Shown piece by piece: positions 35,705 through 44,156 of a stretch of 62,344 nucleotides of DNA (within the stretch, counting starts at the first letter, position 1; every line of letters begins with the position of its first letter). A program made the position numbers and the translations under genes. The DNA comes from a virus (Duplodnaviria > Caudoviricetes): IMG/VR virus record IMGVR_UViG_3300030397_000356, positions 1 through 62,344 of that record; one strand, given 5' to 3'. The notes beneath the pieces were generated by a model. The model was given only the letters and a program-made list of their open reading frames with translations. It was not told the origin of the DNA and did not search any database.

Positions 35705-37114
35705 ATGGACAGACAATTACTTACAGAAAAATGGGCTGACGTGCGCGAGGCTCTTTTGGATGGACTCAATGGTACACTACGTGAAAACGTCGAGGTACTG
35801 CTAGAAAACCAAAGACGTGAAATACTAAAAGAAACTGCTCCGGCGGGATCTATAGAGGCTCACGATATCGCTAATTATCGTCACACCCTTCTACCAATGA
35901 TACGTCGTATCATACCGGGAACCATCGGCACTGAGATTGTCGGTGTACAGGCAATGGACGGCCCCGTTGCCCAAGTCTACACAATGAGATATGTGTATGA
36001 AGAAGAAATGAATGCTCCGGCAGGGTTTGAAGGAAATCCCTTTGGGGGCTTCGATATCTCACCCGGAGATGAAGCGTTCGGCAACGACAGACCGATTAGA
36101 CGGTTTTACGCTGGATCTACTGGCTCGGCTCAGTTGGCGGGTGCTTCTGGAATCGCCAACCCTAATGCGGCTGAAGCTGACATCGATGTTGGACCAGCTA
36201 CCGGCGAAGGTTGGGAGTCTTCAAGAGACGCTACTACCTATGAGACAGGAACAACTCTTTATGGTAACCCTGTCGGCGGATCTCTGCTAGGTGGTTCAGG
36301 TAGCTTCTTGGAAGGTTCCGGCGGTCGTAAAATGACTCTGAGAGTCGTTTCACAGACCGTTGAAGCTAAATCTAGGAAGCTACAGGCTGGCTGGACTCTT
36401 GAAGCCATGCAGGACGCCAAGAACGGACATGGGCTTGACATCGAAACGGAGATGACAAAAGGGCTTACAGCCGAAATCGTTCAGGAGATCGATGCCGAGA
36501 TCATAGGAGACCTTTTGGCTCTTGCTGGAACGGTTCGAACGTTTGACTATAACAACACGGGCGGTCCTACCTATGCACCAGCTTTTGCCGGTGACAGGTT
36601 TGCCAACCTTGGGGTTAGAATAACTGAGGTTGCGAACGAGATCGCCAGAAAGACGCGCAGAGGCGCAGGTAATTTTATAGTTGCTTCGCCAATGATGGTC
36701 AGCGTGCTAACCAGTGCGGCTAAAGCGGTGTTCGCTCCAGCAGTTCAGGGCTCATTCAAAGGCCCTAACAACACCGAGCTAGTTGGAACTCTGAACGGGA
36801 CCATCAAAGTGTATAACTATCTGTGGAATCAGGCGCAGTCATTGGACGCTCTGAGCGCAGGTGCTGGTGGCGGTGCCGACAGAATTCTAGTCGGTTACAA
36901 GGGTGGAAACGGTGAAACCGATACTGGGTATTGGTATACTCCGTACATTCCGGTCACGAGTACCGGCGTCATTATGAATCCGGTAACGACTACGCCGATG
37001 ATAAGCTTGATGACCCGCTACGGCAAGCTGGCCTTGACTGATCCAACGACATCGTTGGGCAACTCGGCTGATTATTACGGTAAAATCAATGTTGTTAACC
37101 TAGACTTCGTTTGA
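35705..37114 (+). CDS. gp23: Major capsid protein gp23
   Basis: EIVGVQAMDGP, VEAKSRKLQAGWTLEAMQD, TRRGAGNFIVAS, YTPYIP, LMTRYG. Confidence 0.97.
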   Translation: MDRQLLTEKWADVREALLDGLNGTLRENVEVLLENQRREILKETAPAGSIEAHDIANYRHTLLPMIRRIIPGTIGTEIVGVQAMDGPVAQVYTMRYVYEEEMNAPAGFEGNPFGGFDISPGDEAFGNDRPIRRFYAGSTGSAQLAGASGIANPNAAEADIDVGPATGEGWESSRDATTYETGTTLYGNPVGGSLLGGSGSFLEGSGGRKMTLRVVSQTVEAKSRKLQAGWTLEAMQDAKNGHGLDIETEMTKGLTAEIVQEIDAEIIGDLLALAGTVRTFDYNNTGGPTYAPAFAGDRFANLGVRITEVANEIARKTRRGAGNFIVASPMMVSVLTSAAKAVFAPAVQGSFKGPNNTELVGTLNGTIKVYNYLWNQAQSLDALSAGAGGGADRILVGYKGGNGETDTGYWYTPYIPVTSTGVIMNPVTTTPMISLMTRYGKLALTDPTTSLGNSADYYGKINVVNLDFV

Positions 37115-37628: not shown

Positions 37629-38384
37629 ATGGATATTTTCTCGCATTTATGGGGCTTACTGATAAGATCAGATAATAGTCCCATATACCTTGCTACGCTA
37701 GTTTTAATAGCCAGTTCTTTATATTTTTTCATAAAAAGCAAGATAGAAATCTGGGCATATCAAAAAAAAGATGACGTTAGAAGACGCCGCTCAATAGATG
37801 TGGACGCAGAGATAAAGGAACTGAAGAACTCATCATTTTTTAACTATTTGAAATTTAAGTTAAATGTAAAACTATATGTTAACAAGTTTTCAGATGATCC
37901 CGGAATAGACCTGCTATACAAGGATCTTTTGAGGATGTTGTTAACATCTTTTTATACTACGTTTAACGAGCGGGTTGATAGATTGAAATTTCTTCAGTCG
38001 GATAAGGAGTTCGAAACACATTGGCATTCGGCATTAAATGAAACACTTGAGAATTTTTCCCTATCCTGTGACAAAGAAGGAATCTCGGACATTGCCAAAG
38101 TCAGTTTTTTGGCTTGGGTTTCTCCATTCATCACCGAACTTTATAAGTTCATATCAGATATTTCTAGGACTGAAATAAACATATACAATAAGACTCGGCT
38201 GTTGTTATTAAGTGCGGAAATGGTTTTGGTTATAGCGGTTGGACAGTTGAAAGTTAAAGAGATATTTAATGGGCGGCTAAAGGGCCTTGAATATAAAGGG
38301 ATGATTCTTGGAAAAGATCAGAGAAAGGCTGACGCATATGAAGATGGTCAAAAAAAAAATAGAAAATTTCCGTTAAGTGGCTAA
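37629..38384 (+). CDS. Late membrane protein, possible holin (single N-terminal TM plus soluble domain)
   Basis: IYLATLVLIASSLYFFI hydrophobic helix; GATAAATA at 37598-37605; holin function is a guess from topology. Confidence 0.5.
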   Translation: MDIFSHLWGLLIRSDNSPIYLATLVLIASSLYFFIKSKIEIWAYQKKDDVRRRRSIDVDAEIKELKNSSFFNYLKFKLNVKLYVNKFSDDPGIDLLYKDLLRMLLTSFYTTFNERVDRLKFLQSDKEFETHWHSALNETLENFSLSCDKEGISDIAKVSFLAWVSPFITELYKFISDISRTEINIYNKTRLLLLSAEMVLVIAVGQLKVKEIFNGRLKGLEYKGMILGKDQRKADAYEDGQKKNRKFPLSG

Positions 38385-38397
38385 AGTCTTAGATTAT

Positions 38398-38560
38398 GTG
38401 AACTACCCATTTGCTAAAGACAAATGGGCTTCGGACTTCGCAGATAGTTGAGTATTACTACTTCTTACACCATCTCCATCCGTGTAATCGACTGTCCCAG
38501 CCGATATTATTTTCAATCCTTCTTTCAGAATGTTCTTTGCTGCATTTAAATCACGGTCTA
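38398..38560 (-). ncRNA. TnpB omega (re)RNA scaffold overlapping the tnpB 3' end
   Basis: Expected position at the IS right end with terminal hairpin; 5' boundary approximate; guide would be the flank ATAATCTAAGACTTTAGCCA. Confidence 0.65.
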
Positions 38561-39593
38561 ATTTATGTCCATTTTTGCAAGTCCATTCACGAACCGAAAG
38601 ATTTAAATCTTGATTTATCCATCCACACACATTACAAGTTTTGCTTGAAGGGTAAAAGCGATTGATTTTAACAACTTGTTTATCGTTCCAATCTGCTTTG
38701 TACTCCAAGAATCTCACAAATGTACCCCAACTTGCATCTGCAATGTGTTTTGATAATTTTCTATTGCTCATCATTCCCTTTACATTAAGGTCTTCCAAAG
38801 CAATTATGTCATAATCAGAAACAAGTTGATGCGATACCTTATGCAATACATCTTGTCTTGTGTTGGATATTTTCTCGTGTATTTTGGCAACTTTTCGTTT
38901 TTGTCTTTCAAACGAATTGCTGCCTTTTTGCTTACGAGAAAGATGTTTTTGTGCTTTCGCTAAATCTCTTTCATATTTCTTGGTATATCTGTTATTCTTG
39001 AATTTGATGCCGTCAGAAGTAATGGCAAAATCTTTCAAACCTAAATCTATTCCGCAAACAGCACCAGTTTTTTCTTTTGGCTGATATTGTTCTTCAGTTA
39101 AAATTGAAACATAGTATCTTCCAGTCGGTGTTTTAGTAAAGGTCATTTTGCCAACATTGCCCTTTATTTCACGGTGAACAATACATTTAATCCCTTCTTT
39201 GAATTTTGGAACGTAAATTCTACCATCAACCAATTTTGTGTGTTGTGGTACTGTGAATCTGTTCTTTCTTTTCTTTGATTTAAATCTTGGGAACTTGGCA
39301 TTGCCACGAAAGAAGTTAAGGTATGCAGTATCCAAAGACCTTAAAGCAAATTGCAGGGTTTGACTGTTTACTTCTTTAAGCCAAACAGTTTCCTCTTGCT
39401 TTTTTAATTCAGTCAAAGTTTTTGCTTGAGCATAGTAGTTGTCAGACTTCTTGTTTGCCTGATACTGTTCTTTACGCTCATTCAGAAAGTAATTGTAAAC
39501 AAAACGTGTTGCACCAAAGTGTTTATTTAAAAGAATTGTTTGTTCTTTGTTAGGTTTTAACTCAAATTTGTATGTTCTGTGAATTTTACGCAT
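38403..39593 (-). CDS. tnpB: RNA-guided endonuclease TnpB
   Basis: N-terminal HRTYKFELKP...FGATRFVYN; RuvC D (GIDLG), E (IALEDL), D (DRDLNAAKNI) all present; zinc-ribbon SSKTCNVCG. Confidence 0.97.
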   Translation of the reverse strand: MRKIHRTYKFELKPNKEQTILLNKHFGATRFVYNYFLNERKEQYQANKKSDNYYAQAKTLTELKKQEETVWLKEVNSQTLQFALRSLDTAYLNFFRGNAKFPRFKSKKRKNRFTVPQHTKLVDGRIYVPKFKEGIKCIVHREIKGNVGKMTFTKTPTGRYYVSILTEEQYQPKEKTGAVCGIDLGLKDFAITSDGIKFKNNRYTKKYERDLAKAQKHLSRKQKGSNSFERQKRKVAKIHEKISNTRQDVLHKVSHQLVSDYDIIALEDLNVKGMMSNRKLSKHIADASWGTFVRFLEYKADWNDKQVVKINRFYPSSKTCNVCGWINQDLNLSVREWTCKNGHKLDRDLNAAKNILKEGLKIISAGTVDYTDGDGVRSSNTQLSAKSEAHLSLANG

Positions 39594-40278
39594 ATCTGAA
39601 CTTTAAACCATTTGCTGTTTTATATTCACCAGTACACACTCGATTTATAGATGACCTATGAACATTGAGTTCATCAGAAGCCTCTTTAATTGAGGTAAAT
39701 TTGTTTATTACATTACCCCTATCATCTATTTGTTCAACTGAACGTTTATGACGTTCAAAATTAAAACCCCAAGTTTCAGTTTCTAAATGACAGTCATAAC
39801 AAAGTGTTCTGCCATTGCTCACATCCCAAAGGTCTTTACAAGAGATTGCTTCTTCAATAGAAGATATATTATTGTCTTCAACGATTTTAGATAATGGGAT
39901 TATGTGGTCACAATTCAAAATAATTCTATTCCCTTTTTGTCTTTTAGAACCACATTTCTGACAAGTATAATTATCCCTATCATAAACCTTAGTTCTCCAA
40001 ATAGAATATTCGGGCAATTTTCTTATTTTGTTCTTTAGTTTGACTGTACCACCTTTCCAGTTCCAAGCATTTTCACCAGAGATTTTCTCTAAAAATCTTT
40101 TTTGTTTTTTACTTTCGCCACGACTTCTTATCGGGATACTATTCTTTTTGAGAAGTTTTCTGACACTTGAAACATCAATTGAAAACATCTGTGCTAATTC
40201 AGTAGTGCTATACCCTTTTTGATATTTACTGCAAATATCAATTCTTTCTTGTTCTGTTAATTTATAAGGTCTTGCCAT
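39586..40278 (-). CDS. HNH homing endonuclease with N-terminal HTH and C-terminal NUMOD1-like domain
   Basis: GENAWNWKGG; RDNYTCQKCG...DHIIP...NGRTLCYDCH; VEQIDDRGNVINKFTSIKEAS...INRVCTG..KTANGLKFRY. Confidence 0.9.
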   Translation of the reverse strand: MARPYKLTEQERIDICSKYQKGYSTTELAQMFSIDVSSVRKLLKKNSIPIRSRGESKKQKRFLEKISGENAWNWKGGTVKLKNKIRKLPEYSIWRTKVYDRDNYTCQKCGSKRQKGNRIILNCDHIIPLSKIVEDNNISSIEEAISCKDLWDVSNGRTLCYDCHLETETWGFNFERHKRSVEQIDDRGNVINKFTSIKEASDELNVHRSSINRVCTGEYKTANGLKFRYA

Positions 40279-40285
40279 TACTATA

Positions 40286-40375
40286 CTACTTATTCACGAA
40301 GTGTTTATCCAGCAACACTTTTTGGTCTTGTGTTGGTCTTAATTCAAAGCGATATGTCCTGTGTATTGTTTTCAT
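40286..40375 (-). pseudogene. tnpB: Orphaned 5' stub of tnpB (29 aa)
   Basis: Reads MKTIHRTYRFELRPTQDQKVLLDKHFVNK*; colinear with MRKIHRTYKFELKPNKEQTILLNKHF of the intact TnpB. Confidence 0.9.
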
Positions 40376-40391
40376 GTTTACAAATATACTA

Positions 40392-40399
40392 TATTTATA
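40392..40399 (-). promoter_or_regulatory. Late promoter TATAAATA inside the IS, upstream of stub-HNH-tnpB
   Basis: TATTTATA on +, 17 nt upstream of the stub ATG. Confidence 0.65.
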
Positions 40400-40407
40400 C
40401 TAAATAC

Positions 40408-40460
40408 GCAAGTTTTTGTAAAAGTTCCGTCTTTGGGTAAAAACTTTCACAAAAACTTGC
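40408..40460. repeat. Inverted repeat upstream of tnpA
   Basis: GCAAGTTTTTGT ... ACAAAAACTTGC, ending 6 nt before the tnpA ATG. Confidence 0.8.
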
Positions 40461-40466
40461 TTCGTT

Positions 40467-40883
40467 ATGTCTAAAAAATCACAGTACATTTCTTCTACAA
40501 ATCGTTCAAAGCATTATCTCAAGTGCCATCTTATTTTTGTCTGCAAGTACCGTAAAAAGTTGCTTGTTGGTCAGTTAAAAGATGATATGCGTTCTATTCT
40601 TTTAAACATTACTTCTAATTCAGATTTTGAAATTGAAGTCTTTGAATCTGATTTAGACCACATTCACTTTCTTATTCGCTACATTCCTCGTTTATCCATT
40701 ACTTCAATAGTTCGTAAGTTAAAACAAGAATCTGCCTATCACATTTGGCGTTCATCTCACAGGTCATTCTTATTTAAACATTTTTGGAAAGAACACACTT
40801 TTTGGTCAGATGGTTATTTCGTTTGCTCAATTGGTGAGGCTTCTCCTGATACCATTCGTGAGTATATTCTCAATCAGGGCTAG
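40467..40883 (+). CDS. tnpA: IS200-family Y1 (HUH) transposase TnpA
   Basis: HLIFVCKYR, DHIH (HUH), FWSDGYF, IREYILNQ (catalytic Tyr). Confidence 0.96.
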   Translation: MSKKSQYISSTNRSKHYLKCHLIFVCKYRKKLLVGQLKDDMRSILLNITSNSDFEIEVFESDLDHIHFLIRYIPRLSITSIVRKLKQESAYHIWRSSHRSFLFKHFWKEHTFWSDGYFVCSIGEASPDTIREYILNQG

Positions 40884-40931
40884 TCGCTTACATCCCACAA
40901 ACTAAAGATTTGTGGGTTTTACGCTCCGTTT

Positions 40932-40939
40932 TATAAATA
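40932..40939 (+). promoter_or_regulatory. Late promoter TATAAATA for the neck gene, spanning the IS junction
   Basis: Exact consensus ending 25 nt upstream of ATG 40965. Confidence 0.75.
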
Positions 40940-40964
40940 CTTCAGAAGAAAGAAAGCTTTTCTA

Positions 40965-43900
40965 ATGGGAATATTTGACTCTTTTAATGATACCCCGAGT
41001 CAGATAAAGTTTGAAGGTCAAGAAATTGATCTAAAATTTATCAGGCTAGACGATAACACAGGAAAACTCACTTGGAATATACCACCGTCTATAGACGGGT
41101 GTTCTGGTGATGGTGTTTATGATGGGATAGTTTTAACAGTTAGTAGAAAACCAGCCGACTATCAAACCACGTCGCCTAAAGATGGACAATATTACATAGG
41201 AGATCCGACTGTTGATCCAGATTTACATTCTGGGAGCAAGATCACAGATGACGTTCTAGTTGTTGGAGCGTTTTATAATGACAGAGAAACTACAGAGTTA
41301 GAAATTACCGATTTACAGCCTAGAACAGCCTACTATTTTTCAGCCTATGCTGTTGATAACGTGGCTAGATATCACAGAGAAGGAGTGCATTCATATTCTT
41401 TACCGACTGGTCCAGAAGAAGGTCCAGAGGATGAAGAAACCAGTGCAGAACAAGCTATAAAGCTAGAGGATGAAATAAGATTAACACAATCAACCGGACT
41501 CAATGCGGACAGTGTTTATGATTTGAAATTGAACATCAATGATTGCGAGTACACTATTGAAATACTGGGGAGTAGTGCTCGAACATATGAATCTTTGATA
41601 AAATCCATCAACAAACAGTTGACTTTTTTGGAGGATGGTATATATCAAAGCCCTACATATCCATATAATGAAACTGTTTGGACCGACGGCACATCTTTTT
41701 ATTTTTGGGATGGACAAAACAAGACAACCTTAGATGTCATTAAAAATGATATAGCACCAAATTTGCTTCCATCTGACACGCTTTGGTATGACACGGACGA
41801 TAAGATATTGTATCGCTATAACGGCCCTCTCGTTAGTGCCGGGACCGAATGGTCAGAGCTTGAACATATAACTTACCAGTTTGATATAACAAAGCCTAAA
41901 TCCGGACAAATATGGTTTAATCCTGCGACCGGTGTTGCTAGAATAAGAAAAAACAAAACATGGTGTAAAATTAATGCGGTGGTTTCATCAAGAAATCCTT
42001 TACTTCCTCAAATAGACACGGACGAGTGCGCTTATTGGTACAACACCGAGACTGGCTCTCTAAGCATGTTGAACATTGACTCAAAAACATGGGAAGATAT
42101 TGACGCAATATACTTTAACAAAGATCCTAACGATTTTGATGTTGGAGATTATTGGTACAATGACCAAGAGGATAAACTTTACGTTTTGCAGTCTGGATTA
42201 GATTGGTTTCACGTGAAACACCTGCTAGTAGAAGAAGTTGACTCTTCACTTACTCAAAGATTGATATATCGATTTGTAAAAGATGAAAGAAATCTGTACG
42301 TGTGGAACACATCACTGAATGTATGGGATAGAACCCCGGTTATTATTAATAATGTTGATCCAAATGCTGATGATTCAGTACAAGATGCCACTTTGGGAGA
42401 TTTTTGGTTTGATGACGAAGACGAGATACTATATCGACTTGAGTCTAGTGGATGGGTTAAGAAAGATAATGTTGTAGTTGAAGAGACCAATTCATACATT
42501 GATTCACCATATGACATAAGATATGCTAAAGACTCTCAACGACTGTATGAGTGGTCTTCAATAACGCTTTCGTGGGAAGAGCTTCCAGTGGCTGTTTTTC
42601 CTTCAGATCCGAGAGACAGGGAGTCTTGCCAATATTGGTGGGACTCAATTTCGGACAAGCTGTTCATATGGGACGATCTGAATGGAGAGTGGGTTGAGGT
42701 TGATTTGTTTTTACAACAGAGCACGGACCCTCTAGCTCCCCAAAAACTTCCAGAAAACACAATATGGTATAATCCGGAAACAGGATCTGTCTTGAAAATT
42801 CTCTCAACCTCGTGTGAAGAAGTCGAGGCTGTAGTTGAGGAATTTGACCCAACTAATCCTCCACCGGATCTTTATTGGCTTTTCGATGGAAAATTCTTTT
42901 TGTATTCTGAAAGTCTTGGAGAGTGGGTAGAAGTATCAAACCAACCGATATTCTCAGACACTGACCCTACAATCGTAAACGTGGGAACGTACTGGTTCAG
43001 CCAGACGATATCAAAACTGTTTAGATGGGATGGGGCCAATTGGGTCGAAGTCCAATTTCAACTGAAAGACCCTAAACCAGATGAAGGCTTTTTGTGGTAT
43101 AACACTGTTAGCGAGAAGTTGTATCGTTGGAACATCGACAAATGGGTGGAGGAACTTCCGATTGCTTATGTAGAATTCGTTAAAGGGTCTAAATGCGGCG
43201 AAAAACACGATAAGTTTGTGTTCAAAACGCGAAAAAAGGGATGCGATGCCATCATAGAAATAATGCGCTCAAACAACAATGTGTTTGGGGAGATAAACGT
43301 CCCCGTGCGTTATTGCCTTTCAAGGCCGGGACAGGATATACAGCGCAAAGGGCCTATGCATTCTGTCATTGGAGTCGGAGACGACGGTAGTCCTGACGAG
43401 CGAAGAGATTTACACAGACGTATACGAGAGTTACTAGGAGAGCCATCCACCAAAGTTGAATTAACGAAGCGTCAAATCGACACATGTATCGACAATGCGA
43501 TACAAATGTTACGCAAATATTCCGGATATGCTTACACTAGAGGACTGTTTTTTCTAGACTTGCGTAGAAATCAACAGACTTATGAACTAGTTGACAAATG
43601 CGTTGGCTTCAATAAGATTGTAAAGGTTTATAATGTCTATAAGTCTAGAAAGCATTTTTGGACTGGATCGAGCATCAATAATGATATCTTAGGCTATGCC
43701 GCACTACAACAGCTTTATCATATGGGCAAATTTGATATCTTAAGCTACCATCTGGTTTCTTCATATCTCGAAGAGTTGGAACATATTTTTGCTTCAAAGC
43801 TACGTTTTCAATGGAGCGAGTATAGTAGAGAGTTGAAGTTTTACAACAGTATTGATGTAGACCAAAGAGTTTTGGTTGATGCTTCTTTAGAGCGACCAGA

Positions 43901-44156
43901 ACAACAGTTAATTACTGATCGGAATACTTCGATGTGGCTGCAAAAATGGGCATTGGCCGAAGCGAAAATGATGCTATCTCAGGGACGTGGAAAATATCAA
44001 TCTTTGCCCGGACCTTCTGGCAGCACTGTGTTAAACGCGCAAGAGCTTATTACACAATCCGAAGCGGAAAAGGCGGCATTACTAGAAGAATTATATGACG
44101 TGTCAATGTGGGCCGGGGAAGAAGTAGGGCAAGACGTTTATTTTGTTATGGGGTAA
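40965..44156 (+). CDS. gp13: Neck protein gp13-like with large N-terminal repeat extension
   Basis: C-terminal RELLGEPSTKVELTKRQIDTCID...WLQKWALAEAKMMLSQGRGKYQSLPGP; N-terminal FN3-like segment and Trp-rich repeats. Confidence 0.85.
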   Translation: MGIFDSFNDTPSQIKFEGQEIDLKFIRLDDNTGKLTWNIPPSIDGCSGDGVYDGIVLTVSRKPADYQTTSPKDGQYYIGDPTVDPDLHSGSKITDDVLVVGAFYNDRETTELEITDLQPRTAYYFSAYAVDNVARYHREGVHSYSLPTGPEEGPEDEETSAEQAIKLEDEIRLTQSTGLNADSVYDLKLNINDCEYTIEILGSSARTYESLIKSINKQLTFLEDGIYQSPTYPYNETVWTDGTSFYFWDGQNKTTLDVIKNDIAPNLLPSDTLWYDTDDKILYRYNGPLVSAGTEWSELEHITYQFDITKPKSGQIWFNPATGVARIRKNKTWCKINAVVSSRNPLLPQIDTDECAYWYNTETGSLSMLNIDSKTWEDIDAIYFNKDPNDFDVGDYWYNDQEDKLYVLQSGLDWFHVKHLLVEEVDSSLTQRLIYRFVKDERNLYVWNTSLNVWDRTPVIINNVDPNADDSVQDATLGDFWFDDEDEILYRLESSGWVKKDNVVVEETNSYIDSPYDIRYAKDSQRLYEWSSITLSWEELPVAVFPSDPRDRESCQYWWDSISDKLFIWDDLNGEWVEVDLFLQQSTDPLAPQKLPENTIWYNPETGSVLKILSTSCEEVEAVVEEFDPTNPPPDLYWLFDGKFFLYSESLGEWVEVSNQPIFSDTDPTIVNVGTYWFSQTISKLFRWDGANWVEVQFQLKDPKPDEGFLWYNTVSEKLYRWNIDKWVEELPIAYVEFVKGSKCGEKHDKFVFKTRKKGCDAIIEIMRSNNNVFGEINVPVRYCLSRPGQDIQRKGPMHSVIGVGDDGSPDERRDLHRRIRELLGEPSTKVELTKRQIDTCIDNAIQMLRKYSGYAYTRGLFFLDLRRNQQTYELVDKCVGFNKIVKVYNVYKSRKHFWTGSSINNDILGYAALQQLYHMGKFDILSYHLVSSYLEELEHIFASKLRFQWSEYSRELKFYNSIDVDQRVLVDASLERPEQQLITDRNTSMWLQKWALAEAKMMLSQGRGKYQSLPGPSGSTVLNAQELITQSEAEKAALLEELYDVSMWAGEEVGQDVYFVMG

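What the first reader, a model, noticed from the sequence alone, without database searches (positions are those of the whole stretch)
39515..40375. HNH homing endonuclease inserted into tnpB, carrying a recoded replacement 5' end
Seen: on the - strand the order is a 29-aa stub (MKTIHRTYRFELRPTQDQKVLLDKHF|VNK*, 40375-40286), a complete HTH-HNH-NUMOD1 gene starting a few nt later, then a full TnpB whose ATG overlaps the HNH stop (AGATATGCGTAA). That TnpB begins with a diverged version of the same 26 residues (MRKIHRTYKFELKPNKEQTILLNKHF|GATRF). Similarity between the two copies ends at AAACACTTYG. There is no room for an intron core and no intein. Established: free-standing HNH/NUMOD genes are phage homing endonucleases, and some repair the gene they disrupt by carrying a duplicate fragment of it. 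Inference: a ~780-bp cassette (HNH plus new tnpB 5' end) homes into the tnpB start of IS605 elements, restores a functional TnpB and is immune to recutting because of the recoding. That would be a nested selfish system (HEG in IS in phage) with a protein-guided and an RNA-guided nuclease translationally coupled. I do not know of this arrangement being described.
Basis: partly seen in the sequence, partly recalled or inferred. Interest (0 to 1): 0.9.

Follow-up and report, generated by a model that had tools for sequence, protein, structure and literature searches.

The report
Endonuclease gene inserted into phage tnpB
A small mobile nuclease gene has inserted into the RNA-guided nuclease gene (tnpB) of a jumping element in a giant phage and brought a foreign replacement for the gene's first 32 codons, so tnpB stays whole and its original start is left behind as a stub.

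Summary
On the - strand lies one IS200/IS605 element (38398-40937) with tnpA, a 29-codon tnpB stub, an HTH-HNH-NUMOD gene and a full tnpB.

- **The stub is the ancestral start.** HNH-free copies in other viral contigs and in other metagenomes join the stub sequence directly to the present tnpB body.
- **A foreign tract replaced part of tnpB.** A 799-nt tract (39498-40296) holds the HNH gene plus 96 nt of a different tnpB lineage. It replaced 17 ancestral nt.
- **The arrangement is not an artefact.** It is not an assembly chimera, a nested IS or an intron.

- The foreign 5' end runs to codon 32, not 26.
- It is a diverged homologue (10 of 26 codons non-synonymous), not a silent recoding.
- A second chimera (P0241) carries the same 32 residues on another tnpB lineage with a longer foreign tract. 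This points to variable co-conversion, not a fixed cassette.

Not shown: HNH cleavage, its target and immunity to recutting. The DNA context of the other HNH homologues (53-83% identity) could not be fetched.

The closest precedent is the fungal mitochondrial mobile-ORF endonucleases that carry foreign gene 3' ends. I rate this a new variant of a known kind, interest about 0.6.

The parts
38398..40937 (-). Whole IS200/IS605-family element (2540 nt). HNH-free copies are 1730-2153 nt, and the closest ones 1754-1767 nt.
   Evidence: Homology to 11 related loci stops at window 40936-40943 and 38382-38398. Contigs of other runs diverge at 38398 and 40937 (table 7). The flanks differ in 16 other copies.
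40894..40916 (-). Left-end subterminal hairpin (CCCACAAA-TCTTTAG-TTTGTGGG), preceded by a conserved TTTAT at 40933-40937.
   Evidence: Read. The stem shows compensatory changes among copies (CCCATTGG/CCAATGGG, CCCACAGG/CCTGTGGG, CCCAAAAG/CTTTTGGG). Inverted repeat I15.
40467..40883 (+). tnpA, a Y1 (HUH) transposase of 138 aa, divergent from tnpB.
   Evidence: Pfam Y1_Tnp E=5e-32. 98.6% aa identity to the tnpA of L004, L007, L074 and L078.
40401..40467 (.). 26-nt inverted repeat in the tnpA-tnpB intergenic region. A TATATTTG motif lies just upstream of the stub ATG.
   Evidence: Inverted repeat I1; sequence. Any promoter role is inference only.
40286..40375 (-). Ancestral tnpB 5' stub: 26 native codons (to 40298), then VNK and a stop read from the inserted DNA.
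   Evidence: 70-76 of 79 nt identical to the tnpB starts of 14 HNH-free loci. 0 differences over the 62 and 130 nt next to the junction in HNH-free contigs of runs X4 and X6. Pfam HTH_OrfB_IS605 E=1.9e-5.
39498..40296 (-). Foreign tract of 799 nt: an 18-nt leader (TGAATAAGTAGTATAGTA), the HNH gene, and tnpB nt 1-96 of another lineage. It replaces ancestral tnpB nt 80-96.
   Evidence: Left-arm identity ends at 40297 and right-arm near-identity starts at about 39497. Contigs of X4 and X6 join 40297 to 39494 with 20 ancestral nt between (tables 5 and 5c).
39586..40278 (-). Free-standing endonuclease gene (230 aa): N-terminal HTH, zinc-finger HNH core, C-terminal NUMOD1/I-HmuI-like domain.
   Evidence: Pfam and PHROGs HNH endonuclease families, best E=2e-20. 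C106, C109, D124, H125, N155, C160 and H164 are invariant in 14 homologues.
39498..39593 (-). Imported tnpB codons 1-32 (MRKIHRTYKFELKPNKEQTILLNKHFGATRFV). The ATG overlaps the HNH stop.
   Evidence: 55-57 of 96 nt identical to HNH-free relatives, against 247-293 of 300 for the next 300 nt. 32 of 32 aa identical to P0241.
38403..39593 (-). Chimeric full-length tnpB (396 aa). The body from codon 33 is of the resident lineage.
   Evidence: Three full-length Pfam domains. Body differs at 6 of 984 and 12 of 1097 nt from the HNH-free contigs of X4 and X6. 87-94% aa identity to L003-L013.
38406..38428 (-). Right-end hairpin (CCCATTTG-TCTTTAG-CAAATGGG). It abuts the tnpB stop, and the element ends 5 nt after the stop (GTAGTTCAC|). 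The presumed omega-RNA scaffold lies in the tnpB 3' end.
   Evidence: conserved in 16 copies. No Rfam family matched. The omega-RNA assignment rests on what is established for IS200/IS605 and was not tested here.

Best explanation
**Shown.**
- The window holds an IS200/IS605 element (tnpA, tnpB, LE and RE hairpins) inside the structural-gene region of a jumbo phage.
- Recently, a free-standing HTH-HNH-NUMOD endonuclease gene was copied into the 5' part of its tnpB, together with the first 96 nt of a tnpB from a different lineage.
- Seventeen ancestral nt (codons 27-32) were replaced.
- The native promoter and first 26 codons remain as a stub that runs into a stop.
- The HNH gene follows 7 nt later, and its stop overlaps the ATG of a now chimeric, full-length tnpB.

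**Inferred mechanism.**
- This is intronless homing. The HNH enzyme cuts or nicks HNH-free tnpB alleles near codons 27-32.
- The break is repaired from an HNH-bearing copy.
- On the 3' side, repair resolves by homology inside tnpB at a variable distance: codon 33 here, about codon 59 in a second chimera. A piece of donor tnpB is therefore co-converted and rebuilds the gene.
- On the 5' side, the junction formed either on a stub already present in the donor or by an illegitimate join.
- The imported codons 27-32 share no codon with the ancestral ones, which would protect the HNH-bearing allele from recutting.
- The 67% identity between the stub and the new 5' end would prevent loss by direct-repeat recombination.
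- The HNH gene then travels both by homing between IS copies and as a passenger of the IS.
For: **Structure and direction of the event.**
- 0 of 80 related tnpB loci in IMG/VR carry this HNH.
- In the 11 closest loci (L003-L013, TnpB 87-94% aa) the first 26 codons match the stub at 88-96% aa.
- Nucleotide figures, over 14 HNH-free loci:

| Segment compared with the HNH-free loci | Identical nt |
|---|---|
| Stub (nt 1-79) | 70-76 of 79 |
| Imported 5' end (nt 1-96) | 55-57 of 96 |
| Next 300 nt of the tnpB body | 247-293 of 300 |

- The left arm, 40939-40297, equals L004 at 98.6%.
- Contigs of two other studies (X4, X6) join 40297 to 39494 through 20 ancestral nt. They differ from the window body at only 6 of 984 and 12 of 1097 nt.
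- The 17 ancestral nt are absent from the window, so the HNH-free form cannot derive from this one.

**Reality of the assembly.** An independently assembled 1916-nt contig in run X1 spans 38670-40585 with 0 differences.

**One element only.** There is a single LE and a single RE, the hairpins co-vary, and the flanks differ in 16 other copies.

**Endonuclease.**
- HNH and NUMOD/I-HmuI-like domains.
- The catalytic and zinc residues are invariant in 14 homologues of 53-100% identity.
- Some family members look decayed, as expected for homing genes. P0013 lacks the HNH core, and P0002 has CYDGH in place of CYDCH.

**Recurrence and variable tract.** P0241 compared with the window's imported N-terminus and with the L019 lineage:

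| P0241 residues | Compared with | Identical aa |
|---|---|---|
| 1-32 | the window's imported N-terminus | 32 of 32 |
| 1-32 | L019 | 19 of 32 |
| 33-60 | L019 | 22 of 28 |
| 61-200 | L019 | 140 of 140 |

- P0241 and the HNH homologue P0002 (82% identity) are both from Logan and share the same longest-contig length, 3365 nt.

**Recoding at the junction.** In codons 27-32, 0 of 6 codons are identical while 4 of 6 aa are the same. Only 6 of 17 nt match.

**Coupling.** The stop/start overlap is ATGCGTAA. Homologues P0002, P0003, P0005, P0012 and P0013 also end in FRYA, which is compatible with the same overlap.

**Precedent.** Fungal mitochondrial mobile ORFs (mORFs): the native remnant is 91-98% identical to relatives and the inserted copy 64-81% (PMC3630166, passages read).
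Against: - No cleavage activity, target site or immunity is shown.
- This HNH was seen as DNA next to tnpB only in this window.
- The contexts of the homologues P0002-P0015 could not be fetched, so the P0002-P0241 link rests on an equal contig length alone.
- P0002 is only 82% identical to the window's HNH, although the 32 residues of the tnpB start are identical.
- More distant HNH relatives (50% identity or less) are never next to tnpB: 0 of 80 viral loci and 0 of 81 loci in the second batch.
- The insertion site is not a nucleotide-conservation peak of tnpB. Windows covering nt 70-100 lie at the 19th-36th percentile, so the usual 'targets a conserved site' argument has no support.
- The left junction shows no co-conversion: 0 differences from HNH-free alleles right up to the junction. 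That fits an illegitimate one-off join as well as it fits homing.
- No donor lineage carrying the imported sequence over a whole tnpB was found. The best match is 84-86% over 45 aa.
- Sigma-70-like promoter matches are not above chance: 8 found against 9.9 expected.
Confidence: 0.6

Rival explanations
1. A fixed, self-contained cassette. A ~780-800-nt unit with defined ends (HNH plus a dedicated, recoded tnpB 5' end) inserts at one breakpoint, KHF|G, in every target. Each product has the same stub-HNH-tnpB anatomy.
For: - The window's anatomy fits.
- The 10-nt AAACACTTYG is present at both the stub end and the imported copy.
- The same 32-residue N-terminus recurs in P0241.
- Five homologues end in FRYA.
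Against: - The foreign tract ends at codon 32/33 in the window but extends to about codon 58 in P0241, so the right end is not fixed.
- 17 nt of the target were replaced rather than simply interrupted.
- The imported end differs at 10 of 26 codons non-synonymously. That is lineage divergence, not recoding.
- No second stub was seen.
Confidence: 0.15
2. A one-off illegitimate recombination with no homing. An ordinary phage HNH gene that happened to lie upstream of another tnpB copy was joined to this IS by template switching or recombination between two IS copies. The HNH has no specificity for tnpB.
For: - Only one locus was seen as DNA.
- The left junction is abrupt, with no co-conversion.
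- HNH genes are common in phages and have many roles (one search lists many HNH PHROGs).
- The insertion site is not especially conserved.
Against: - A second tnpB lineage carries the identical imported 32 residues with a different crossover point. That needs at least two recombination events at the same gene end.
- The NUMOD/I-HmuI-like DNA-binding module is typical of homing endonucleases.
- The catalytic residues are conserved across homologues of 53-83% identity, and some copies look decayed.
- The precise in-frame restoration with a stop/start overlap is unlikely by accident.
Confidence: 0.2
3. Two nested or abutting IS insertions. The tnpA plus stub would be the remnant of one element, and HNH plus tnpB a second element that landed in it.
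For: The two tnpB 5' ends belong to different lineages.
Against: - Only 7 nt separate the stub stop from the HNH ATG, which leaves no room for a left end.
- There is only one LE and one RE hairpin, at the outer ends.
- The tnpB body downstream belongs to the same lineage as the stub and tnpA: 98.6% identity to L004 over the left arm, and 6 differences in 984 nt from X4 over the body.
- No remainder of a first tnpB lies beyond the RE.
Confidence: 0.02
4. An artefact or an RNA-level element: an assembly chimera, or a self-splicing intron or intein that is removed.
For: None beyond the unusual anatomy.
Against: - A second assembler's contig spans both junctions with 0 differences.
- The HNH protein cluster has 3 member sequences on 3 contigs.
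- No Rfam intron match at E up to 1.
- Only 18 nt of the insert lie outside coding sequence.
- The HNH is a separate ORF in another frame, so it cannot be an intein.
Confidence: 0.02

Closest known systems
Fungal mitochondrial mobile-ORF endonucleases (mORFs) that carry a foreign gene end: Allomyces macrogynus atp6; Glomus atp6, atp9, cox2 and nad3; Rhizopus atp9; Mortierella cox2
   Same: An endonuclease ORF travels with a diverged copy of one end of the host gene. That copy replaces the native end in frame, and the native end stays alongside as a remnant. The native remnant is near-identical to relatives (91-98% there, 89-96% of nt here), while the inserted copy is far more diverged (64-81% there, 57-59% of nt here). 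Source: PMC3630166, passages read; figures here.
   Different: Those cases replace the 3' end, with the remnant downstream, and use LAGLIDADG or GIY-YIG enzymes in mitochondrial respiratory genes. Here the 5' end is replaced, with the remnant upstream keeping the promoter and start codon. The enzyme is HNH-NUMOD, and the host gene is itself a mobile-element nuclease in a bacterial IS inside a phage.
Free-standing homing endonucleases of T-even phages (Seg and Mob proteins): intronless homing with co-conversion of flanking markers
   Same: A free-standing nuclease gene sits between or inside conserved genes. It is inferred to spread by double-strand-break repair, with variable-length co-conversion of the neighbouring donor sequence. 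Described in the review PMC13565253, passages read.
   Different: Those genes usually sit between genes and leave no duplicated fragment of the target. Here the insert is inside an ORF and the gene is rebuilt by the co-converted piece. Activity here is untested.
I-HmuI-type HNH endonucleases with NUMOD modules
   Same: The protein has an HNH core plus a C-terminal NUMOD1/I-HmuI NUMOD-like domain (Pfam).
   Different: It has an extra N-terminal HTH, and the HNH is central. It is not intron-encoded. The only solved-structure sequence hit is weak: 5h0m, called 'HNH endonuclease', E=0.0017, core only. The structural model was too poor to compare.
IS200/IS605 elements with tnpA and tnpB, in which TnpB acts as an RNA-guided homing nuclease
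   Same: The host element has a Y1 tnpA, a tnpB with all three Pfam domains, subterminal hairpins, an RE that ends just after tnpB, and copies at many different sites. The role of TnpB in element maintenance is taken from the abstracts listed.
   Different: No described IS605 element that I could find carries a protein homing endonuclease gene inside tnpB. Searches: plus passages of the review PMC13565253. The known composite forms are IStrons, which are a group I intron plus an IS.

Membership tests
IS200/IS605 insertion sequence (host element) | Y1/HUH transposase TnpA | tested here: met
   Pfam Y1_Tnp E=5e-32, 111 bits against a cut-off of 23.
IS200/IS605 insertion sequence (host element) | TnpB with an HTH, a RuvC-like OrfB_IS605 domain and a zinc-ribbon TNB domain | tested here: met
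   All three Pfam domains are above cut-off and cover their profiles nearly end to end.
IS200/IS605 insertion sequence (host element) | Subterminal imperfect hairpins at LE and RE, no terminal inverted repeats, and copies at different sites beside a short conserved target | tested here: met
   The LE and RE hairpins are conserved and have compensatory stem changes. A conserved TTTAT lies at the LE edge. The flanks differ in 16 other copies.
IS200/IS605 insertion sequence (host element) | omega/reRNA encoded at the tnpB 3' end and RE | not testable with these tools
   No Rfam model matched. Only conservation of the RE region was seen.
HNH homing endonuclease (free-standing) | HNH beta-beta-alpha-metal catalytic motif with its His, Asn and His residues and zinc cysteines | tested here: met
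   Pfam HNH 23.7 bits against a cut-off of 21.4. D124, H125, N155, H164, C106, C109 and C160 are invariant and C163 is nearly invariant in 14 homologues.
HNH homing endonuclease (free-standing) | Sequence-tolerant DNA-binding modules (NUMOD or HTH) | tested here: met
   I-HmuI_NUMOD-like 31.6 bits (cut-off 27), NUMOD1 28.5 bits (cut-off 22.8), HTH_17 27.6 bits (cut-off 27).
HNH homing endonuclease (free-standing) | Presence/absence polymorphism at an otherwise homologous site | tested here: met
   HNH-free alleles with a near-identical body occur in X4 and X6 and in L003-L013.
HNH homing endonuclease (free-standing) | Cleaves the HEG-less allele near the insertion site while the HEG-bearing allele is resistant | not testable with these tools
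   This needs an enzyme assay. The only indirect hint is that 0 of 6 codons are shared at codons 27-32.
HNH homing endonuclease (free-standing) | Repeated spread into independent alleles, with co-conversion of flanks | tested here: inconclusive
   P0241 shows the same imported N-terminus on another tnpB lineage with a longer tract. Its link to an HNH gene rests only on an equal contig length with P0002.
Gene-end-replacing mobile endonuclease ORFs (fungal mitochondrial mORF type) | The inserted copy of the gene end is diverged, and the native end is retained as a near-native remnant | tested here: met
   Stub 70-76 of 79 nt and imported end 55-57 of 96 nt identical to relatives.
Gene-end-replacing mobile endonuclease ORFs (fungal mitochondrial mORF type) | The hybrid gene remains an intact reading frame | tested here: met
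   A 396-aa ORF with full domain coverage. Expression was not tested.
Group I/II intron or intein | A ribozyme core, or an in-frame protein-splicing domain | tested here: not met
   No Rfam match. Only 18 nt of the insert are non-coding. The HNH is a separate ORF in a different frame.

The most novel reading that the evidence does not exclude
This HNH family is a specialist parasite of tnpB. It lives at the 5' end of tnpB in IS605 elements of jumbo phages and Bacteroidota. It spreads between IS copies and lineages by cutting the codon 27-32 region, and it always rebuilds tnpB with its own resistant 5' end. It also takes over the native tnpB promoter and start (the stub), so that stub, HNH and tnpB are read as one coupled unit. 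That would be a three-level nesting of selfish elements: a protein-guided homing nuclease, inside an RNA-guided homing nuclease gene, inside an IS, inside a phage. The rare 'HFGA' N-termini seen in some HNH-less tnpB genes (P0130, P0137, P0141) would then be footprints of past invasions.
Probability: 0.3. Interest if true: 0.8.

Novelty: new variant of a known kind. Interest (0 to 1): 0.6.

Why it matters
- TnpB is the ancestor of Cas12 and is itself a homing nuclease that keeps IS elements in place. A protein homing endonuclease that invades tnpB without destroying it would show that these RNA-guided nucleases have their own parasites.
- It would extend the gene-end replacement strategy, known from 3' ends of fungal mitochondrial genes, to a 5' end and to the bacterial and phage world.
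- Break-induced co-conversion is a way for tnpB N-termini to be shuffled between IS lineages.
- The HNH enzyme would be a candidate site-specific nuclease with a defined natural target.
- The locus gives a natural pair of susceptible and resistant alleles for testing.

Tried and rejected
**Searches for other copies of the HNH**
- A near-identity DNA search of the whole IS in GenBank phages found no match.
- HNH relatives in IMG/VR, searched with the single protein and with a 14-sequence alignment, reach at most 50% identity. None lies next to tnpB.
That batch plus L243 makes 81 loci, and none holds tnpB, tnpA or a stub. The contigs of the 80-83% homologues seen in the protein database were therefore not recovered.
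- Two scans of GTDB genomes gave no HNH relative and one irrelevant archaeal tnpB, 42% identical and with no HNH.
- An HNH protein search in GenBank phages reached at most 41% identity, in Bacillus and Leeuwenhoekiella phages.
- A DNA pattern for the imported codons 25-32 found 0 matches in IMG/VR.

**Searches for a donor or for further chimeras**
- Scans with the 'HFGA'-type TnpBs P0141 and P0130 in IMG/VR returned mostly the contigs already held, plus a few more distant ones. No closer relative appeared: best identity 86% (two partial matches at 90%) and 82% (one partial match at 83%).
- Across the 334 loci held, the motif residue after HFG was C 137 times, S 5, G 3, H 2 and A 0.
- Cluster look-ups found no further chimeras. 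Only the window's own protein has the imported N-terminus among 15 listed of 351 members, of which 40 were read. None has it among 30 listed members of two clusters of 587 and 263.
- Truncated TnpB calls in the cluster (P0283-P0287) looked like possible further interruptions. They proved to be gene-calling choices at GTG starts; P0284 equals L012 exactly.

**Other checks that gave nothing**
- The idea that the insertion site is a conservation peak was tested and not supported.
- Sigma-70 promoter and terminator scans were not above the shuffled controls.
- Rfam gave only a chance snoRNA match at E=0.84.
- The AlphaFold model of the HNH protein was poor (pLDDT 65, pTM 0.32, HNH core below 50), so I ran no fold search.
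- The profile search against solved structures gave one weak hit (5h0m, E=0.0017).
- From the read-laying, the parts of the window without cover in X4-X6 are not used as evidence of absence. Only the bridging contigs are used.
- X1-X3 come from one study and may be the window's source, so they are not independent of it.

**Limits on what I could see**
- Supplementary files of papers were not opened. The supplements of PMC3630166 (its Figures S1-S4 and Tables S1-S4) may hold the alignments behind the identity figures I quote from its text.


Full report
**Anatomy**

On the - strand the region reads as follows.

| Feature | Window coordinates | Notes |
|---|---|---|
| Conserved TTTAT | 40933-40937 | at the left edge of the element |
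| Left-end hairpin | 40894-40916 | |
| tnpA | 40467-40883, + strand | divergent from tnpB |
| Intergenic inverted repeat | 40401-40467 | 26-nt arms |
| Stub ORF | 40375-40286 | 29 codons |
| HNH gene | 40278-39586 | 230 aa, begins 7 nt after the stub stop |
| tnpB | 39593-38403 | 396 aa, ATG inside the last 8 nt of the HNH ORF (ATGCGTAA) |
| Right-end hairpin | 38406-38428 | abuts the tnpB stop |

Pfam confirms the identities:
- tnpA is a Y1_Tnp (E=5e-32).
- TnpB has all three of its domains.
- The inserted gene has an HTH, an HNH core and a NUMOD1/I-HmuI NUMOD-like domain.
- The stub alone matches the TnpB HTH domain (E=1.9e-5).

PHROGs files the inserted gene under HNH endonucleases, best E=2e-20.

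The window is a 62-kb fragment of an IMG/VR viral record rated 18% complete. Its major capsid protein is 60-63% identical to those of the 309-385-kb Xanthomonas and Stenotrophomonas jumbo phages. The IS sits between a phrog_18926 gene and a large phrog_211 gene.

**One IS, and a mobile one**

- Nucleotide homology to related loci stops at window 40936-40943 and 38382-38398.
- Contigs from other metagenomes diverge at exactly 38398 and 40937 (table 7).
- Sixteen other copies in viral contigs have the same ends, different flanks and compensatory changes in the left-end stem. They are 1730-2153 nt long, and the closest are 1754-1767 nt, against 2540 nt here.
- No second left or right end lies inside the window element. 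Only 7 nt separate the stub from the HNH gene. A nested IS insertion is therefore excluded.

**Which 5' end is native**

- None of 80 related tnpB loci from IMG/VR carries the HNH gene.
- In the 11 closest loci (L003-L013, TnpB 87-94% aa) the first 26 codons of tnpB match the stub at 88-96% aa. They do not match the present start of the window's tnpB.
- At the nucleotide level, over 14 HNH-free loci:

| Segment compared with the HNH-free loci | Identical nt |
|---|---|
| Stub (nt 1-79) | 70-76 of 79 |
| Present tnpB nt 1-96 | 55-57 of 96 |
| Present tnpB nt 97-396 | 247-293 of 300 |

- The left arm 40939-40297 equals L004 at 98.6% and stops at 40297.
- The alignment shows that the foreign stretch runs past KHF|G to nt 96 (GGTGCAACACGTTTTGTT against the ancestral GGGTGTGTTAGGTTCGTG). 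After that the sequences are again near-identical.

The foreign tract is therefore 40296-39498, 799 nt. It consists of an 18-nt leader, the HNH gene and tnpB codons 1-32 of another lineage, and it replaced ancestral nt 80-96.

**Independent reads**

- In run X1 (which may be the source sample) a 1916-nt contig spans 38670-40585 with no difference. Both junctions are therefore real in a second assembly.
- In X4 and X6, which come from two other studies, contigs join 40297 to 39494 through 20 nt that read as the ancestral sequence.
- Those two contigs differ from the window's tnpB body at only 6 of 984 and 12 of 1097 nt. They show no difference in the 62 and 130 nt of stub next to the junction (tables 5, 5c and 8).
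- X5 shows the matching loose end.

The event is therefore recent relative to the divergence among IS copies. Because the 17 ancestral nt are missing from the window, the HNH-free form cannot be a deletion product of this one.

**Where the imported end comes from, and whether it recurs**

- Among the loci held, the best match to the imported 32 residues is 72%.
- In the large protein database the best full-length TnpBs reach 84-86% over the first 45 residues.
- Among shorter proteins, P0241 (204 aa) is 96% identical over 45 residues.
- P0241 has residues 1-32 identical to the window's imported N-terminus.
- Against the L019 lineage, P0241 scores as follows:

| P0241 residues | Identical to L019 |
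|---|---|
| 1-32 | 19 of 32 |
| 33-60 | 22 of 28 |
| 61-200 | 140 of 140 |

- P0241 is thus a second chimera. It has the same foreign start on a different resident lineage, with the crossover near codon 59 rather than codon 33.
- P0241 and P0002 (an HNH homologue, 82% identical) are both Logan-only and have the same longest-contig length, 3365 nt. This suggests they are neighbours, but I could not see the DNA.
- No further chimera appeared among 14 other listed members of the window's TnpB cluster, or among 30 listed members of two L019-type clusters.

**The endonuclease family**

- The protein database holds full-length homologues at 80-83% (P0002-P0005), 64-69% (P0006-P0012) and 53-55% (P0014, P0015) identity.
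- The HNH histidines, the asparagine and the zinc cysteines are invariant or nearly so.
- Some members look decayed. P0013 lacks the core, and P0002 has a Gly in place of one zinc cysteine.
- One cluster member, P0350, lies on a 340,874-nt contig. That is the size expected for this kind of phage.
- Five homologues end in FRYA like the window's protein. This is compatible with the same stop/start overlap.
- Relatives of 50% identity or less are never beside tnpB: 0 of 80 loci, and 0 of the 81 loci (plus L243) scanned.

**Mechanism**

What is shown:
- an insertion with replacement;
- a foreign but homologous 5' end;
- an intact chimeric ORF;
- presence/absence polymorphism;
- a second chimera with a different tract length.

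What is inferred:
- The HNH enzyme breaks HNH-free tnpB near codons 27-32, and repair copies the HNH gene from a donor.
- The 3' side resolves by homology at variable distance, which is co-conversion.
- The 5' side joins either to a stub already present in the donor or illegitimately.

Codons 27-32 of the imported end share no codon with the ancestral ones, yet keep 4 of 6 residues; only 6 of 17 nt match. This is what a resistant allele would look like, but it is only a hint. The 67% identity between the stub and the new start (52 of 78 nt) would also hinder deletion between the repeats.

Several results weaken a simple homing story:
- The site is not a conservation peak.
- The left junction shows no co-conversion.
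- Only this locus was seen as DNA.

**Comparison with what is known**

The closest described system is the fungal mitochondrial mobile-ORF endonucleases. They carry a foreign C-terminal gene portion, replace the native one and leave it as a remnant. The native remnant is 91-98% identical to relatives and the inserted copy 64-81% (PMC3630166, passages read). Partial C-terminal duplications beside HEGs are also reported in PMC6279837 (passages read).

The present case is the mirror image at a 5' end. It uses an HNH-NUMOD enzyme, and the host gene is tnpB of an IS in a phage.

I found no description of a protein homing endonuclease inside tnpB. This rests on full-text searches for 'homing endonuclease'+TnpB+HNH (19 papers) and 'homing endonuclease gene'+IS605 (4 papers). 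I also read passages of the 2026 review PMC13565253. That review treats intronless homing and TnpB separately and, in the passages shown, mentions no such insertion. I saw these papers as listings, abstract openings or passages only, not in full.

**Verdict**

The history and anatomy are as proposed, but the 'fixed recoded cassette' is better read as a homing gene with variable co-conversion, and activity is untested.
- Novelty: a new variant of a known kind.
- Interest: about 0.6.

Noticed in passing
L071:789-1937 (IMG/VR contig, tnpB of the same family): A different 1149-nt insertion splits a related tnpB between nt 803 and 808, at the ALE|DLNV RuvC motif, into a 270-aa ORF (open at the contig's 5' end) and a 120-aa ORF. 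The insertion carries a 349-aa ORF with an endonuclease I / Holliday-junction-resolvase-like domain (PHROG E=2.5e-16; Pfam Phage_endo_I 28.3 bits, just under its cut-off). No duplicated gene fragment is present. A separate HNH-like gene follows the second tnpB piece. tnpB in these phages may be invaded by nuclease genes repeatedly.
   Followed up: partly
window 40426-40854, seen in run X6 (tables 5 and 5c): An HNH-free copy in another metagenome lacks tnpA: it skips 427 nt, with 16 other letters in their place. This is a tnpA-less derivative of the same IS. Other short deletion joints were also seen in X1 and X4.
   Followed up: no
window 38391-38481 and 40848-40938: In run X1 the summed contig depth at the two IS ends (about 5,100 and 28,000) is far above that of the HNH and tnpB interior (437) and the phage flank (267). 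Many other elements sharing these end sequences are present in that sample.
   Followed up: no
L039:3518-4000: One related IS copy has a 484-nt tnpA-tnpB spacer, against about 90-115 nt elsewhere. The spacer holds an 83-aa ORF with no credible family match.
   Followed up: partly
Proteins P0130, P0137 and P0141 (metagenome TnpBs): A few full-length TnpBs have 'HFGA(S/T)R' at residues 25-30, like the imported end, whereas 137 of 147 motif occurrences in the IMG/VR loci have 'HFGC' and none has 'HFGA'. I could not check whether these are HNH-associated or footprints of past invasions.
   Followed up: partly
window 40375 versus L003-L013 position 1 of tnpB: The stub starts with ATG, as do the HNH-free alleles of X4 and X6. 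The closest IMG/VR copies start with GTG, which led gene callers to shorten several database TnpB entries (P0283-P0287).
   Followed up: yes
window 35705-37114 and 40965-44156: The IS lies in the structural module of a jumbo phage. The capsid protein is 60-63% identical to those of Xanthomonas phages XacN1 and Xoo-sp13 and Stenotrophomonas phages CM1 and RAS14. The IS lineage's named relatives, in contrast, are from Bacteroidota (Parabacteroides phage 66%; Sphingobacterium and Bacteroidales entries in the clusters).
   Followed up: partly
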